In this document: piece after piece, positions 9,001 to 18,000 of the stretch
Layout of the letters: each line of letters opens with the position of its first letter
Position numbering within the stretch: position 1 is the first letter of the stretch
Program-made: the position numbers
DNA from: Verrucomicrobiota bacterium
GTDB lineage: Bacteria; Verrucomicrobiota; Verrucomicrobiia; Verrucomicrobiales; DEV007
Direction of reading: 5' to 3'
NCBI GenBank assembly: GCA_045046875.1
Contig: JASFYY010000055.1
Span: 1 to 64,000, forward strand
DNA: 64,000 bases

Positions 9001-12000
9001 TGATGGGTGCTCAGAGCATAAAGCTGATCGAGATCAGCTTAGGGTTTGTTAGCGGTGTTTTCGTCACAGCAAGTACTGTCAGCTAGGGTTTTCCCGGCAG
9101 CATGTTTCTCATTACCTTCGGTGTAGCGAAAGGTTTGAAACTGGCCTTTGATGAGGACGGGGGTGGCTTGATCCAAGGGCAATACGGCTTTTTGATGGTG
9201 ATTGTTTTCCAGCCAAGTGACGAGCAGGGCGGAGTTGATATTATTTTTACCCTTTGTATTAGCTTTTTGATTAGTCTTAATTTGTTGCCATTTGACAACG
9301 GCGCGGGCGCGATTGCGGTGCTGCAGGATGTGCAGGGTCTGATCGCCCACTTTCACCTCAGCTGGCAGGGAATCGATTTGCTGACTGCTGAATTGGTTGT
9401 TTTTGTGATCCCAGATGAAAGCGGTCAGGTGACCGATTTGATCGTCATTGGCACTGAGCAGCAGCCGGTTTTTATCATTGCCCACTAGCTGGATCGGATC
9501 GCGGGCGGTGAGGCGGGATTGGCTGGCACTGTTTCCTTTCAAGCGGGTGGCCGGGAGCAGGGCGGGGTGGATGCCTTTGGTGAGTTCGGGGTGATCGAGG
9601 AAGCAGAGATGACGCTCGATGGTGCCTTCGTCGGAAGCCAGAGTGACTTCGATGGCACGGTTGGCGAAGTCGCTGTCGTTGCTCTCTTTGATGTTGCCGT
9701 TCTCTTCCAGTAAAGCGTGTTCGTAGCTGCGGATATTTTTGATAGTCCAACTGGGGAAGATTTCAGCTCCTGCTTCGGGTAGCGCATAAAAATGTCCCTG
9801 GTGTTCAAATTGAACCGTATCTTTGGCGGCCTTTAGCCATTGTCCGGGAGCTGAGGGCTGGCTGCCTGCAGGCAGCACACGAACTTGGACGCCGAGCTCT
9901 TCAAGCAGGCCGGCGGGGCCGTCCTCTTTGCTTTGGTAGATCCATTGTTGTTGTTTTGCTTTTTCATCAGCAGGGGCATTTTTTGTCCAACTGATTTCGA
10001 CCGCATGGGATTCCTTGTTACTTTGATTATCGGTTTCCGGCATGGCCTTTGCCTGCGGCCAGTATTCGAGGATGCGCAACTCGGTATCGGCGAGCTTCAG
10101 ATTTTGTCCAAGATGATCCGCTGTCACGCTGTCTGCTACGGAGAGCCCTTTGTCATCATGAGTCAAGAGTTCGATTGTCACATCAATGGGATCATGACCT
10201 TCTTCTACCAGTGACGTTTTTTGCGTGCTTTTGTTGCAAGATAAGGAGAAGAGGATTGCGGGTAGGCATGACAGAAATAAACGGGTGGTAGCAGAGAGGT
10301 GGATTGGAGCATTCATGGTGTGAGGCCTTATTTTAAAGAATCGGCAATTTGACAGAGTTGTTGATAGTAGTCTTCGGTTTCCATCCCCATCAGGGTGGCT
10401 CCGAAGGCCTCGGCAGCATCGGGTCCGGCGATGTCGCCGTAGTTGACGCAGACGAGGTGGTAGGCGACGAGCATTGGCAGCACCGCATCGTTGCCCTCGA
10501 AAGCCGGATGAACCGTCAGGATAAAACCACTGGTTGGATTGCCGTTTTCTACCGCCTGGATGAAAGCGAACTCGCCTTCCAGTAGGGGGTCGTTTGCAAA
10601 AACCAGCCGCAGTGGGTAACGCACAAAACGGCGGTCTTCGAGCAGGGCGTAAAGCGACTCAAGAGGCAGTCCGGGCAATAGGCTGATGCCGTATTCCTGT
10701 CGTGCCTCGTAAGCCTTGTCTGCAGCATGCTCGACGAGGGAGCGTTTACCGTCTTCCTCGGTCGGGCGGATGCGGGCAGGCATACGGTTGGGTTTAGCAG
10801 CAGCGGGCATGGTTTTGTCGGGTCTATTTGTTGTAGCGCGCTTTAAATTCCGCCGAGGCTTTTTCCCGGGCAGCTTTTTCTTCGGGATCCATGTCGCCGA
10901 TGAACCAGCGGTGGTTTTCGCTCTGGAGGGTTTTGTCGAGCACTGCCTGCAAGTTCTGGGCGGCTTTTTGTTTTTCCGGATCTTTATTGGCCATTCCTTT
11001 TTCGATCAGGTGCTCGAGTTCGGGGATGAACTTCACGTAGAAGTGCTGGGCGACTTCATAGGTGCCGTGCCAATGGGTGTAGTCGGGTCCCATCATCGAT
11101 GCGCCGTGGCGTGCGCGACGACCTTCGTGATGCCAGATCTCGAACCAGATGAAGTCGAGTTTGTTGCCGAACTTGATGGGTTTCATCAGTGGTTTGGCGG
11201 CGGCATAGAGGGCGAGTCCCGGTTTGGCAAATTTCTCGTTGTAGAGTTCGATCAGCGAGTCGTATTGCACATACCAGTTTTTCACCCAGTTTTCACTGTG
11301 GCAGTTTGAGCACACGTCCTGCATGTTGGAGCGTCGTTGGGTCCATGGGACATCTTTGCCGGGCAGTCCCATCTTGGCATCCGAGACTTCGGGTCTGACC
11401 GAAACGGCAGGCCGGTTGTTCCACGAAATGCGCATGCCGACGTCATGGGTGACCGCTTGGTTTTTGGTCTGCGACATGTGACAAGTGGCACAGGTGGGGG
11501 CGGCTGAATAATCCTCGCCGACGATCCACTTGGGAGAGTCGAGATTCATTTTGTTGATATTGGCAAAAAAGGCGATGCCGTGCTTAGACTCTTCGTAGAT
11601 TTCCTTTTGCGGATGGTCGGGGCCCATGTGGCATTTGCCGCAAGTGTCCGGATGGCGTGCCTGGGCAGCTGAGAATGTGTGGCGACTATGGCAAGCCGAG
11701 CAGGACCCCTCCGAGCCGTCCGGGTTGAGTCGGCCGATACCGGTATTGGGCCAGGTGGCGGGATCGAGCAGCCCTTTGCCACCTTCGAGCACTTTGACTT
11801 CGGTGCCGTGACACTGCCAGCAACCGTTGACGGCGGCAGCAGAAACTCCACCGGGGAAGGCTTTGGTTTTCATGCCTTTGTTTCCTTCGACGACTTCGGC
11901 TAGCACGTTGTCGAGTGAGCCGAGGATGCGTCCTGCCTTGGAGTGATGGGATCCTGCGAATTCCTTGACTTCCTGATCGTGACAGCGAGCACAATCCTTG

Positions 12001-15000: not shown

Positions 15001-18000
15001 GCAGCGGGTGTTGATGCCGTGTTGCAGTTTGATATTGGCGTGTTGGTGGAGGTCAGTGGAGCGGGGTTGGGAATCGATGATGATGTGGCAGTCCATGCAG
15101 GTGCGTTCGAAGCCGTTGACCATGGCTTTGGGAGGATCGGATAGCGGCGTGAAGCGTGGGGCGGGGTTGATATCCGTAGCGCTGATGGTGATCGGATCCG
15201 GAATAGGGATGCTGCTTCCTGTTGGTAAAAAGAGGAAGCCCACTGCGGTGGCAAAAAAAACCAAAGTGAGCCCCCAGATCACCGGGCGATCCAGTGATTT
15301 GGTAGTTTGATTTTTGTTTTTTTGTGGGAATTCACTCATCGAAGTAATCTGTTTCCAACATGGGTTACGGCTACCAGTGGCTTTGAGTTGAGTTTGGATG
15401 TTTTAAAATTGGAGAGATGGAAAGGAAGTGGCAAAATGCGGGCAACCCAGCACAAGATAAGCTCAGAAGGGGGGGCAAGGATGATGATGGGGCCCTTTTT
15501 GGAAGTGATGTGTTTCAGTGATTCGGTGATTTATGGTCGTGAAGGGAGGATCCCCTTATTAAAAAGTTCTTGTGTGTGGTGGATGTTGTTGTATTATGGG
15601 GGGGCGAGGGAATTATTCGGGGGAGTCGAAGCACTTAGGAAAGGGATCAATTATGAGGAAGATACGGGAATTTTTGTTGGGGCCGGAGGGGCAGACGAAT
15701 TATTATCATGTGGTGAGCCGGACGACGGGACGGGATATTTTGTTTGAGGATGATGAGAAGGAAACTTTTCGGATTTTGATGCTCAAACAGTTGAAGTTCA
15801 GTGGGCTGCGGGCACTGGCATGGTGTTTTATGGGCAATCACTTTCATTTGTTGTTGGAGGTGCCGGATAGGGAGTTGGCGACAGAGGGGTGGAAGGATGA
15901 GGATTATATTAAGCGTTTGGAGGTGTTTAAGAATGAGTGGTCGAGTAAGTTGGTGTTGGATGAGGTGGAGATGTTTAGGGGGAACGGGGCGGATGAAAAG
16001 GTGAGCGAGATTGCGGAATCGGTGAAGGCGCGACTGTTTGATCTGTCGATGTTTATGAAGGAGTTGAAGCTGAAAATGACATTGGCTTACAACCGGAAGC
16101 ACGACCGAGTGGGGACTTTGTGGGAGGGGCCATTTAAGAGCTTATTATTACAGGGGGCGGGTGAGGGTGAAAGTAGTGATGCTCTGCGGATGGTGGCGGC
16201 TTATATAGACCTGAATCCGATTCGCGCGGGGCTGGCGCAGGAGCCGGAGGGATACCGTTGGTGTTCGTATGCGGCGGCGGTGGCCGGGGTGCGTGGGGCG
16301 AGGCAGGGTTTGTGTTATGCGGTGACGGGGCGTAGTCGGGTGGCGTGGAAAAAGGTGGAGCAGGAGTATAGGTGTTTGCTGTATACCAAAGGGCAAACGG
16401 TGAAGACGGGTCAAAACCTCCGTCGCCAAGGCTATGGCGGTCAAGCGGTGGGCGGTTATGATAAAGGTAAGGGAGGGTTTAGTCGGGCGGAGATCAAAGA
16501 GGTGTTGGAATCAGGGGGGAGATTGTCGGTGGCGGAGGCATTGAGATGTAGGGTGAGGTATTTCACTGATGGGTCGGTGTTGGGGAGTCAGCGTTATGTG
16601 GATGATTTTTTTGAGAGCAAGAGGGAGTGCTTTGGCGCGCGGCGTAAGGATGGAGGAAGGCGGATGCGTGGAGCGCAGTGGGGGGAACTGCGGGTATTGC
16701 GGGATTTGAAGGTGGATGTGGTGTGCAAAGGGGGCTAAGAAGAGGTGGAAGTATTTTAACGAGTAGGGAGAAGTGGTTTGTTAAGGGCAGTTCAGGTTGG
16801 TTCTTATGAGTCGCGTGTCGAGTGCTCCCTGCATCAGTCTTCGATGTTGATGTCGGGGATGTGGTTGAAGGCGATTTTAGCGTGCACGCTGTCGATCGCA
16901 TCATGGGCACCGCCTAAGTATAGGGCTTGTTTGCCGTATTTCGAGTTAACGGCATCGAGGGTTTCGTTGAGTCGGTTGAGCTTTTCGTTTTGGGCCGGGG
17001 CAAAAAGTGAGGGGGTGAATTGACCTTCTGCAACGAGCTTTGCTAAAACGATATTCACTTTGCGGATGGGGATGCCTGGATGGGGGCGTTGTTTCCAGAG
17101 TTTTTTTACGCTGCTGCTTAGGAATAAGGAATCCATGGTTTCGGGGAAAATTGCTCTGCCTGACCAGCTTGTCTGATTGAGGAAACGTAGATGCAGCTCC
17201 AGAGAGCTGGTTAATAATCCATGATGACGCATGCGGGTGCCGGCTTTTTGGGTCAGGCGGTGAACCACTGCGATGGCACGAGCGGGATGGCGCAGGTCGG
17301 GTGGCAGTACATGTCCGTGACTGATGGAGCGTTTGACCGGCTTGTCGCCATAGTCGTCGATATGATCACCGCGCAATTTGTGCCACAACCGATTGCCTTC
17401 CACGCTGTTCCAGATCGCCCGTAGGGTGGGTTTTGGGGTGGCGCAGAGTTCACGCACACTATGGATGCCGTGTGAATGCAAACGCAATTCCATGTTGGTT
17501 CCGATTCCGTGCAGATCGCTTAGTTTCAGAGTATACAACTTTTCAGGTAAGTCATTTGCTTCGATGATCACAAAACCGTCGGGCTTTTCCATTTTGGATG
17601 CGGTTTTTGCCAACCAGCCGTTGCAGGCAACGCCAATTGAGCAACGTAGAGCATCACTGAAGGTGTGTTTCATTTTTTCTTTAATCTGATCGGCGACTCT
17701 GCTTACGGTTTCCCGGCTGCGCCAATTGTTTGGCAGCCAACAGATCATTTCGTCGATTGATAGAACATGATCCACATGAATGCAGGATTCGACCAGTTCG
17801 ACGATTTGGTGGTGTACTTCGACATAGAGTGGTGGTCGGGCGGCAATAATTTGGATGTCTGGGCACAGACGGCGCGCTTCGGCCACCATGGTTCCGGTTT
17901 TGACTCCGTAGGCCTTGGCTTCATAACTGGCGGCAATGCAGCAGGTGGTTTCGGCCAACATTGGGGCGACGCCGACCGGACGCCCTCTTAAATGAGGTTG

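What a model noticed while it worked through the whole genome (the two positions that open the first line are those of the whole stretch)
9039..15339. Octaheme HAO-family cytochrome wired to an NrfCD quinol dehydrogenase: a five-gene respiratory complex missing from the [...]
An operon encodes a tetrahaem cytochrome, a Tat-exported NrfC-like Fe-S protein, an NrfD-like membrane subunit, an octahaem HAO-family protein (g02096) and a small conserved gene. This predicts a quinol-fed, reductive HAO complex (nitrite or hydroxylamine reduction) in heterotrophic PVC bacteria.
Evidence so far: 8 and 4 CxxCH motifs. Closest solved protein is the octahaem 4qo5 (E 4e-52), far ahead of oxidative HAO 1fgj (2e-19). 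585 confirmed loci, best 80 kept, 66-99% identical, from Verrucomicrobiota, Planctomycetota, Myxococcota and others; of 79 (one near-identical dropped) 68 keep tetrahaem + NrfC + NrfD with the octahaem gene and 64 the small gene. Present in 3 of 5 congeners, in none of 55 other relatives searched.
(Added by a program. Inside this text positions count along the whole contig: contig position 1 is position 1 of the stretch shown here. "Call 12" and the like, gene names such as g00115 and contig names such as C1 are that model's own, and its searches are not shown. The text may have been shortened before it was handed on; [...] marks where a part breaks off. The agent that wrote the report below was given it as the finding of a first reader that could run no searches.)

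Follow-up and report, generated by a model that had tools for sequence, protein, structure and literature searches.

The report
Quinol-fed eight-haem nitrite reductase operon
These genes most likely build a membrane-linked enzyme that lets marine bacteria respire nitrite without the usual NrfA enzyme; a matching gene set was proposed for this job in vent bacteria in 2016-17 and we found no test of it, so this is a little-studied variant rather than a new kind of system.

Summary
The operon is real but has six genes: tetrahaem, DsrO-like Fe-S protein, DsrP-like NrfD-family protein, octahaem, a 160-aa zincin-fold protein lacking HExxH, and a lineage-limited ResB-like lipoprotein.

The cross-link question is settled: HAO Tyr467 aligns to Trp406 or His405, never Tyr, and the catalytic Asp/His pair is kept, so the enzyme is reductive-type (closest structure IhOCC). 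napA lies within 9 kb in 22 of 80 loci. Of 50 operon genomes, 31 have Nap or Nar and 27 of those lack NrfA, NirK and NirS. Best reading: quinol-fed nitrite reduction, probably to ammonium (0.6).

It is not missing from print: Mardanov 2016 and Slobodkina 2017 describe a cytochrome/Fe-S/NrfD/Hao locus in the same order beside nap in Thermosulfurimonas and Dissulfuribacter, proposing nitrite reduction (sequence homology untested here). Brocadiaceae-type contigs carry it too, and this scan reported it before in a Phycisphaerales genome (e1-5077381).

New here: the small gene travels with the quinol module, not the octahaem; three other Verrucomicrobiota have the module beside a multihaem/porin-like cluster, without Hao. 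Verdict: untested variant of a known kind; interest 0.45.

The parts
14605..15339 (-). Membrane-anchored tetrahaem cytochrome c (244 aa); predicted relay from the Fe-S protein to the octahaem
   Evidence: 4 CxxCH at residues 81, 113, 142, 177; one hydrophobic segment 20-38; Pfam Cytochrome_C7 27.8 bits, cut-off 24.8; 91 of 93 homologues have 4 CxxCH
13560..14621 (-). DsrO/NrfC-type 4x[4Fe-4S] protein with a twin-arginine motif (353 aa)
   Evidence: Four four-cysteine motifs at 130, 191, 223, 272; R38, R39, F41 invariant in 41 sequences; best NCBIfam DsrO 178.8 bits, cut-off 200
12301..13563 (-). DsrP-type member of the NrfD family; predicted quinol-oxidising membrane subunit (420 aa)
   Evidence: Pfam NrfD E 4.8e-42; NCBIfam DsrP 424.4 bits, over the cut-off of 350; T67, D116, S135, D140, K338 in 44 of 44 and Y62 in 39 of 44, spaced like DsrP1 Tyr52/Thr57/Asp106/Ser124/Asp129/Lys329 in PMC8076601 (matched by spacing, not aligned to DsrP itself)
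10824..12287 (-). Octahaem HAO-family cytochrome without the cross-link tyrosine (487 aa from the ATG at 12287); predicted catalytic subunit
   Evidence: 8 CxxCH; hydrophobic N-terminus 8-26; model pLDDT 93, best match 4qo5 Z 30.1, rmsd 2.7 A over 382 residues, ahead of 6h5l Z 23.9 and 1fgj Z 23.3. The longer GTG frame from 12392 overlaps nrfD; a purine-rich site precedes the ATG
11070..11075 (-). Codons His405-Trp406: the position of the N. europaea cross-link Tyr467
   Evidence: Profile alignment to 1fgj/4fas: HMMER sets Tyr467 against 405, the ungapped register from His459/Met398 against 406; W406 in 157 of 158 homologues, 405 is H or Q in 158 of 158
11613..11618 (-). Asp224-His225, the distal pair at the catalytic haem (HAO Asp267/His268)
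   Evidence: Aligned; D and H in 158 of 158 homologues; the catalytic role of the pair is recalled
10328..10810 (-). 160-aa protein without signal peptide; zincin-like fold lacking the HExxH motif; accessory of the quinol module
   Evidence: No Pfam or NCBIfam hit; no hydrophobic segment; model pLDDT 92.5 matches zincin folds (6d2s Z 8.0, abylysin 4jiu Z 7.9 rmsd 3.1, PprI 8sln Z 7.8, borderline Z); H28, D59, R64, Y117, Y124 invariant in 45; found after tetrahaem-nrfC-nrfD in genomes without Hao
9039..10316 (-). 425-aa probable lipoprotein related to the periplasmic part of ResB/CcsB (cytochrome c maturation system II); lineage-limited add-on
   Evidence: No Pfam hit itself; in 6 of 80 loci by tblastn; its profile finds ORFs just downstream of the small gene in L018 and L019 (E 1.5e-14, 1.3e-20) that are Pfam ResB (E 6e-25, 4e-25); Atlas neighbours ResB-like at TM 0.45-0.48, a lead only; lipobox read by eye
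9021..9040 (.). 8-bp palindrome at the last stop codon; possible terminator
   Evidence: Listed as a + strand site; the region holds no more such sites than shuffles (7 vs mean 8.9), so weak

Best explanation
A periplasm-facing quinol:nitrite oxidoreductase for anaerobic respiration, working like E. coli NrfABCD with an IhOCC/epsilonHao-type octahaem in place of NrfA. Inferred path: the DsrP-type subunit oxidises quinol, electrons pass through four [4Fe-4S] clusters to the anchored tetrahaem and on to the octahaem, whose haem 4 (no tyrosine cross-link, Asp224/His225 beside it) reduces nitrite, most likely to ammonium and possibly through hydroxylamine. Nitrite comes from Nap or Nar, and the same module may feed NapA where napA is co-transcribed. 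The 160-aa protein is a cytoplasmic accessory of the quinol module; the ResB-like protein may help mature the cytochromes. Shown: genes, motifs, fold, missing tyrosine, gene linkage and co-occurrence. Inferred: complex formation, direction, substrate, product, roles of the two small genes.
For: No Tyr at the cross-link site. Tyr-less epsilonHao proteins reduce nitrite and hydroxylamine with negligible oxidation (PMC8042395). Closest structure is IhOCC, described as a nitrite reductase. A napA-like gene lies within 9 kb in 22 of 80 loci, in 15 downstream on the same strand; of 4 scanned, 3 pass the NapA cut-off and 1 has NapA as best hit below it. In the first 50 of 70 complete-module genomes: NapA 25, NarG-type 17, either 31; NrfA 2, NirK 6, NirS 2; 27 of the 31 have none of the three and 23 of the 31 also lack a qNor-like gene, which favours a product other than NO. 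NapA is in 8 of 17 Verrucomicrobiota operon genomes against 4 of 300 sampled from the phylum. FNR-type boxes of at least 9/10 lie upstream in 9 of 65 loci against 0 of 65 shuffles. T. dismutans and D. thermophilus make ammonium from nitrate, lack nrfA and have the same four-gene order beside nap.
Against: No activity or expression data exist for this clade. Tyr-less HAOs differ in product: K. stuttgartiensis HAOr makes NO and the BpMHAO HAO domain did not reduce nitrite (preprint). This genome has NirK and a qNor, so it does not need another nitrite reductase; its Nap-like protein is divergent (360 bits, cut-off 904) and unlinked; its upstream FNR match is only 7/10. 19 of the 50 genomes had no NapA or NarG at my thresholds, though 4 of 5 re-checked carry the divergent Nap-like gene. 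The genomes are incomplete MAGs and kin; the 300-genome control scored only up to 3 candidates per genome; c-type Nor may be missed by the qNor query; Otr, ONR and NirBD were not searched. Homology to the Thermosulfurimonas genes is by description only.
Confidence: 0.6

Rival explanations
1. Same wiring, but the octahaem stops at nitric oxide, as K. stuttgartiensis HAOr (Kustc0458) does.
For: HAOr lacks the tyrosine and reduces nitrite to NO; it keeps Asp/His like this protein, whereas IhOCC has Asp/Val; Brocadiaceae-type contigs carry the operon; this genome has qNor.
Against: Only 13 of 50 operon genomes have a qNor-like gene, and 23 of 31 nitrate-reductase genomes have neither it nor another nitrite reductase; the fold and the C-terminal Met/Asp motif are closer to IhOCC than to 6h5l.
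Confidence: 0.13
2. A quinol-fed sink for nitrite, NO or hydroxylamine stress, or for redox balancing, not a growth-supporting respiratory enzyme.
For: Patchy distribution (0 of 400 sampled Verrucomicrobiota have a close homologue); Rrf2-family genes in 9 of 80 loci; this genome has no Hcp but has NirK, qNor and oxygen reductases; epsilonHao also reduces hydroxylamine.
Against: Tight linkage to napA and a NapB-like tetrahaem and a dedicated quinol module fit respiration better. Detoxification and respiration are not exclusive.
Confidence: 0.12
3. A reductase for a sulfur compound (sulfite, tetrathionate, polysulfide), analogous to MccACD or DsrJOP.
For: Membrane and Fe-S subunits are closest to DsrP and DsrO; PMC5276818 leaves this option open; an NrfD protein near tetrahaem and Fe-S genes rises under sulfite in D. 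thermophilus (PMC13490349; no Hao is described beside it, so probably another locus); related DNA occurs in vent metagenomes.
Against: MccA matches only at Z 5.9 against 30.1 for IhOCC; recurring neighbours are nitrate genes, and no sulfur gene came up among those annotated; dsrA not found here or in 50 operon genomes (where no positive control rang).
Confidence: 0.08
4. An oxidative HAO passing electrons from hydroxylamine to the quinone pool, cross-linked through a nearby tyrosine (Tyr403 or Tyr410).
For: Tyr403 and Tyr410 lie near the site; NrfD-family modules can run in either direction (established for Qrc and Hyd-2, recalled); databases label homologues hydroxylamine dehydrogenase.
Against: Neither register puts a Tyr at 467; position 403 is Ile or Trp in 26 of 158 homologues; the non-cross-linked IhOCC has Tyr at the 410 position too.
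Confidence: 0.04

Closest known systems
Four-gene locus TDIS_0609-0606 (Thermosulfurimonas dismutans) and DBT_2329-2326 (Dissulfuribacter thermophilus); Mardanov 2016 PMC4911364, Slobodkina 2017 PMC5276818
   Same: Cytochrome c, 4Fe-4S protein, NrfD-family protein and a Nautilia HaoA homologue in this order by locus tag, two genes from napMADGH; proposed for nitrite reduction in nrfA-less ammonifiers
   Different: Sequence homology and haem counts could not be checked; the two intervening genes are called periplasmic, unlike the 160-aa protein; the 2016 paper read the complex as cytoplasm-facing; those hosts are thermophilic autotrophs with Dsr
IhOCC (PDB 4QO5) and epsilonHao-type reductive octahaems (Nautilia, Caldithrix, Deferribacter)
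   Same: HAO fold, 8 CxxCH, no cross-link tyrosine, Met at the position of HAO His459; frequent position beside nap
   Different: About 32% identity to IhOCC, which has Val for His225; published electron donors are a Rieske/cytochrome b complex, ACIII or a membrane tetrahaem/decahaem, not a DsrOP-type module
NrfABCD of Escherichia coli
   Same: Architecture: quinol-oxidising NrfD-family subunit, four-cluster Fe-S protein, multihaem relay, multihaem nitrite reductase (PMC12285233)
   Different: Octahaem HAO fold with CxxCH in place of pentahaem NrfA with CxxCK; anchored tetrahaem in place of soluble NrfB; NrfC and NrfD models far below cut-off
DsrJOP arm of DsrMKJOP
   Same: DsrP cut-off passed, DsrO nearly; DsrP1-type quinone-site and channel residues by spacing
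   Different: Four haem motifs (DsrJ has three, recalled); no dsrM/dsrK among recurring neighbours; dsrA not found
MccACD octahaem sulfite reductase system
   Same: An octahaem cytochrome already known to be wired to NrfC/NrfD-type subunits (PMC8076601)
   Different: MccA is a different clade (Z 5.9); MccD is in group D of the NrfD family, DsrP in group C
Tyrosine-less HAO paralogues of anammox bacteria
   Same: Contigs whose octahaems cluster at 90% with Brocadiaceae-labelled proteins (63-65% identical to ours) carry tetrahaem-nrfC-nrfD-octahaem in the same order
   Different: No small gene there; which Kuenenia paralogue this is was not shown (kuste2435 is 499 aa, against 492 aa: length only)

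Membership tests
HAO-family octahaem (clade 1 of Soares 2022) | Eight CxxCH motifs in the HAO fold with C-terminal helices | tested here: met
Oxidative HAO/HDH | Cross-link tyrosine (N. europaea Tyr467) | tested here: not met
   His405 or Trp406 at the site; no Tyr at either in 158 homologues
Oxidative HAO/HDH | Seven bis-His transfer haems | tested here: not met
   His459 aligns to Met398, Met in 158 of 158; six further His conserved. Met ligation itself is inferred
Reductive HAO (epsilonHao / IhOCC type) | No cross-link tyrosine, HAO fold | tested here: met
Reductive HAO (epsilonHao / IhOCC type) | Phylogenetic placement with Nautilia/Campylobacter epsilonHao | not testable with these tools
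   No named epsilonHao sequence came up; the supplement search of PMC9250108 returned nothing for any term
Reductive HAO (epsilonHao / IhOCC type) | Nitrite/hydroxylamine reductase activity; trimer | not testable with these tools
   Needs purified protein
TDIS_0606-0609 / DBT_2326-2329 locus | Cytochrome c, Fe-S, NrfD, Hao in this order, near nap | tested here: met
   Order; in this genome the Nap-like genes are on another contig
TDIS_0606-0609 / DBT_2326-2329 locus | Orthology of the four proteins | not testable with these tools
   No sequence labelled as either organism was returned by any search
NrfABCD | Pentahaem NrfA with CxxCK | tested here: not met
   All eight motifs are CxxCH; no full-length NrfA in the genome
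NrfABCD | NrfC and NrfD equivalog scores | tested here: not met
   108 of 378 and 29 of 348 bits
DsrMKJOP | DsrP subunit | tested here: met
   424 bits, cut-off 350
DsrMKJOP | DsrO subunit | tested here: inconclusive
   Best hit but 178.8 bits, cut-off 200
DsrMKJOP | dsrM and dsrK in the operon, trihaem DsrJ, DsrAB in the genome | tested here: not met
   Six genes without dsrMK; four haem motifs; dsrA not found in a 94.7% complete genome. dsrMK not searched genome-wide
MccACD | MccA-type octahaem | tested here: not met
   4rkm Z 5.9, rmsd 10 A
Zincin metallopeptidase (160-aa gene) | Zincin-like fold | tested here: inconclusive
   Top rows are zincins but Z 7.8-8.0 is borderline; Atlas TM 0.54 to IrrE-like models
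Zincin metallopeptidase (160-aa gene) | HExxH zinc motif | tested here: not met
   The helix reads AYHLVCVNY; His118 in only 26 of 45, no Glu after it
ResB/CcsB (425-aa gene) | Pfam ResB match and membrane helices | tested here: inconclusive
   No direct match or membrane helix; indirect link through L018/L019; no match to the genome's own ResB

The most novel reading that the evidence does not exclude
A DsrJOP-derived, possibly ion-translocating quinol dehydrogenase with its own cytoplasmic pseudo-peptidase accessory is a plug-in module. Coupled to a Tyr-less octahaem it gives Planctomycetota, Verrucomicrobiota, Myxococcota and some anammox-family bacteria an energy-conserving, NrfA-independent nitrite ammonification that nrfA surveys miss and that is filed as nitrifier hao; in one other Verrucomicrobiota family it was re-plugged into a multihaem/porin conduit for extracellular electron transfer.
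Probability: 0.3. Interest if true: 0.72.

Novelty: new variant of a known kind. Interest (0 to 1): 0.45.

Why it matters
Whether nitrate ends as ammonium or as gas decides if nitrogen stays in an ecosystem, and surveys count ammonifiers by nrfA (established practice, recalled). If this operon is an ammonifying nitrite reductase, many marine, lake and reactor PVC bacteria with Nap or Nar and no known nitrite reductase are uncounted ammonifiers, and their gene is annotated hydroxylamine dehydrogenase, which reads as nitrification. It also offers a candidate for the unidentified nitrite-to-ammonium step in Thermosulfurimonas and Dissulfuribacter, both in culture, so the question can be tested directly.

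Tried and rejected
Complex prediction of the 160-aa protein with the NrfD and Fe-S subunits gave no verdict (score 0.00, controls not folded); it is not used as evidence.
No RNA holder was listed for the stretch. DNA contigs of four runs cover 26-30 of 30 bins at mostly 90-99% identity and add only presence.
The promoter/terminator scan was no different from shuffles.
A profile of the small protein found no PDB sequence at E <= 1; the best 120 of 205 homologues carried no Pfam domain and, but for one 'ferredoxin' label, only 'hypothetical' names.
The supplement zip of PMC9250108 returned no occurrence for five terms, including Kuenenia, so that search is uninformative; its sequence tables may bear on the epsilonHao placement.
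A search of 201 genomes in the phylum of G406 found 28 with homologues but cannot name them; it did not give access to the Thermosulfurimonas genes.
The dsrA search of 50 genomes had no positive control.
Rejected: the small gene as an octahaem partner (present without Hao, absent from Brocadiaceae-type loci); the cluster in PMC10732223 as prior art (it has ActD/CcoP-like genes and no octahaem); the 522-aa GTG start; a Fisher test of the NapA enrichment, because the genomes are kin.
No paper describing the operon in PVC heterotrophs surfaced in searches (listings of an open-licence library only). Not read: Haase 2017, Parey 2016, Kartal 2013, Simon and Klotz 2013, Duarte 2021; PMC12758564 and PMC7814187 seen as listings only. 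From memory, unchecked: Kartal 2013 links some Kuenenia Hao paralogues to quinol-oxidising partners.

Full report
Observation. Window 9039-15339 holds six tightly packed minus-strand genes: a tetrahaem cytochrome with one membrane anchor (14605-15339), a twin-arginine Fe-S protein with four cysteine motifs (13560-14621), an NrfD-family membrane protein (12301-13563), an octahaem (10824-12287), a 160-aa protein (10328-10810) and a 425-aa probable lipoprotein (9039-10316). Motif counts, PDB scores, the 585/80 loci, the synteny counts and the 3-of-5 / 0-of-55 distribution all reproduce. Of the 80 loci, 35 are labelled Planctomycetota, 29 Verrucomicrobiota, 8 are unlabelled and 8 other.

The membrane arm is DsrOP-like. 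The NrfD-family protein passes the NCBIfam DsrP cut-off (424 vs 350) and is far from NrfD proper; the Fe-S protein is nearest DsrO. Residues spaced like the DsrP1 quinone-site and channel residues tabulated in PMC8076601 (passages) are conserved: D116, S135, D140, K338 and T67 in 44 of 44 sequences. There is no dsrM or dsrK in the operon and dsrA was not found in this genome (94.7% complete), so it is not a DsrMKJOP complex.

The octahaem is a reductive-type HAO. A 70-sequence profile reaches the C-terminal helices of N. europaea HAO. Counting from His459, which aligns to Met398, Tyr467 falls on Trp406; HMMER's own gapped alignment puts it on His405. IhOCC has Phe against Trp406. Among 158 homologues from my loci, 406 is Trp in 157, 405 is His or Gln in all, Met398 and Asp224/His225 are invariant, and the nearby Tyr403 is replaced in 26. 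The model (pLDDT 93) matches 4qo5 best (Z 30.1; HAOs 20-24; NrfA about 11; MccA 5.9). PMC9250108 (passages) confirms that 4QO5 is the Ignicoccus octahaem nitrite reductase; that its product is ammonium remains recalled. PMC8042395 (passages) reports that Tyr-less epsilonHao proteins reduce nitrite and hydroxylamine and hardly oxidise hydroxylamine.

Context points to nitrate respiration. A napA-like gene lies within 9 kb in 22 of 80 loci, in 15 downstream on the same strand, often with a NapB-like tetrahaem. I searched the genomes of the first 50 of the 70 complete-module loci: NapA 25, NarG-type 17, either 31; NrfA 2, NirK 6, NirS 2, qNor-like 13, DsrA 0. Of the 31 with a nitrate reductase, 27 have none of the three known nitrite reductases and 23 also lack a qNor-like gene. 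NapA occurs in 8 of the 17 Verrucomicrobiota among them against 4 of 300 sampled from the phylum (the control scored fewer candidates per genome, and kin are not independent). FNR-type boxes of at least 9/10 lie upstream in 9 of 65 loci and 0 of 65 single-base shuffles; this window scores 7/10. Against a simple story: this genome has NirK, a qNor, several haem-copper oxidases and only a divergent, unlinked Nap-like cluster that keeps the molybdenum-cysteine motif; NrfA, NirS, Hcp, NosZ and NarG were not found. Tyr-less HAOs also differ in product (NO for HAOr; no nitrite reduction by the BpMHAO domain, preprint passages).

The unit is modular. The 160-aa gene was found in 5 of 400 sampled Verrucomicrobiota that have no HAO-like octahaem (only short weak multihaem matches in three). 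In G237, G117 and G291 the order is tetrahaem-nrfC-nrfD-small, close to a DmsE/GSU2203-like cytochrome (below cut-off) and a long ORF of about 740-920 aa read as a porin from its position only; G285 has nrfD, cytochrome b genes and the small gene; G069 has a truncated remnant. This recalls the porin-cytochrome clusters of PMC5615132 (passages), which do not mention NrfD. In a fast tree of 99 Fe-S subunits the three Hao-less ones form one clade nested among Hao-linked ones, suggesting one re-wiring. Conversely, in a fast tree of 173 octahaems all 101 NrfD-linked rows fall in a 120-row part (support 88), while a 39-row sister part has none in the contig stretch held and includes proteins clustered with Ca. 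Thiopontia and Thermodesulfovibrionia labels. The window's protein sits among Planctomycetota and Myxococcota rows, apart from most Verrucomicrobiota, which with the patchy distribution and an IS200-like gene upstream hints at lateral transfer; this was not tested with a rooted analysis. The small protein has a borderline zincin-fold match without HExxH and no signal peptide, so I infer a cytoplasmic accessory of the quinol module. The 425-aa gene is linked to ResB only indirectly.

Prior art. PMC4911364 (passages) describes a four-gene cluster in T. dismutans of two multihaem cytochromes (TDIS_0609, 0606), an Fe-S protein (0608) and a membrane anchor (0607) close to nap. PMC5276818 (sections 14 and 16) identifies TDIS_0606 and DBT_2326 as Nautilia HaoA homologues, the anchor as NrfD-family, and proposes nitrite reduction in organisms shown to ammonify nitrate without nrfA, with sulfur metabolism as the alternative. 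The order matches ours; orthology could not be tested. A 2026 proteomic study of D. thermophilus (PMC13490349, passages) leaves the nitrate condition for future work. An octahaem on an NrfCD-type base is also known as MccACD. Eight metagenome loci (L082-L089), four of whose octahaems were traced to 90% clusters holding Brocadiaceae-labelled proteins, carry the same genes in the same order, seven complete and one cut by the contig end. Other papers seen as passages only: PMC10732223, PMC6896113, PMC5317091, PMC3482989, PMC12053348, PMC5460018, PMC12285233. Searches surfaced no description in PVC heterotrophs and no biochemical test; key subscription papers were not readable.

Verdict. A real, conserved operon that works like NrfABCD with an IhOCC/epsilonHao-type terminal enzyme and a DsrOP-type quinol module. 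It belongs to neither NrfABCD nor DsrMKJOP, and probably is the locus proposed in 2016-17. Most likely function: respiratory nitrite reduction to ammonium (0.6). Novelty: new variant of a known kind. What is added here is the resolved cross-link position, the nap linkage and nitrite-reductase gap across PVC genomes, and the assignment of the small gene to a re-pluggable quinol module. Interest 0.45.

Noticed in passing
L200:5044-8402, L202:4144-12927, L203:2140-9855 (G237, G117, G291): The tetrahaem-nrfC-nrfD-small module without any Hao, close to a 7-CxxCH DmsE-like cytochrome and a long family-less ORF, possibly a porin; a candidate quinol feed for extracellular electron transfer. NrfD is 582-583 aa in two of them, with an insertion.
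   Followed up: partly
L162:3605-13822 (G000 contig C20): Divergent Nap-like cluster: four-domain cytochrome c, an 872-aa RR-motif molybdoenzyme 28% identical to NapA, three NapG-like and two NapH-like genes; the molybdoenzyme is 83-100% conserved in 4 of 5 other operon genomes checked.
   Followed up: partly
L082-L089: Brocadiaceae-type contigs with tetrahaem-nrfC-nrfD-octahaem and no small gene; a candidate nitrite-to-ammonium system in anammox-family bacteria. L083 has a 3-kb insertion between nrfC and nrfD.
   Followed up: partly
L029:10277-11665, L043:4450-5721; homologue at L167:4392-5693: An Opr/alginate-export-type porin gene recurs beside the operon in 21 of 80 loci; this genome has a 36% homologue on another contig.
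   Followed up: no
L125:1803-11006: The same octahaem (67%) beside a cytochrome b, 9-, 4-, 8- and 6-CxxCH cytochromes and a different NrfC/NrfD-like pair: another wiring (read by eye).
   Followed up: no
window 15572-16738: IS200-like transposase (Pfam Y1_Tnp) about 300 bases upstream of the operon on the opposite strand; contig depth jumps at its edge in three of four runs, as for a repeat.
   Followed up: no
window 19206-21067: RNA ligase gene overlapping an HD plus AAA_33 gene, a pair that looks like an RNA end-healing and repair system, in a lower-GC stretch.
   Followed up: no
L165 (G000 contig C46) and L166:4461-6887 (contig C78): An alternative complex III-like cluster followed by a haem-copper oxidase subunit (read by eye), and a second 8-CxxCH protein with TPR repeats that is not HAO-like.
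   Followed up: no
L204:6295-7251 (G069): A tetrahaem followed by a 127-aa ORF joining the NrfC N-terminus to the small protein's C-terminus, apparently a deletion remnant of the module.
   Followed up: no
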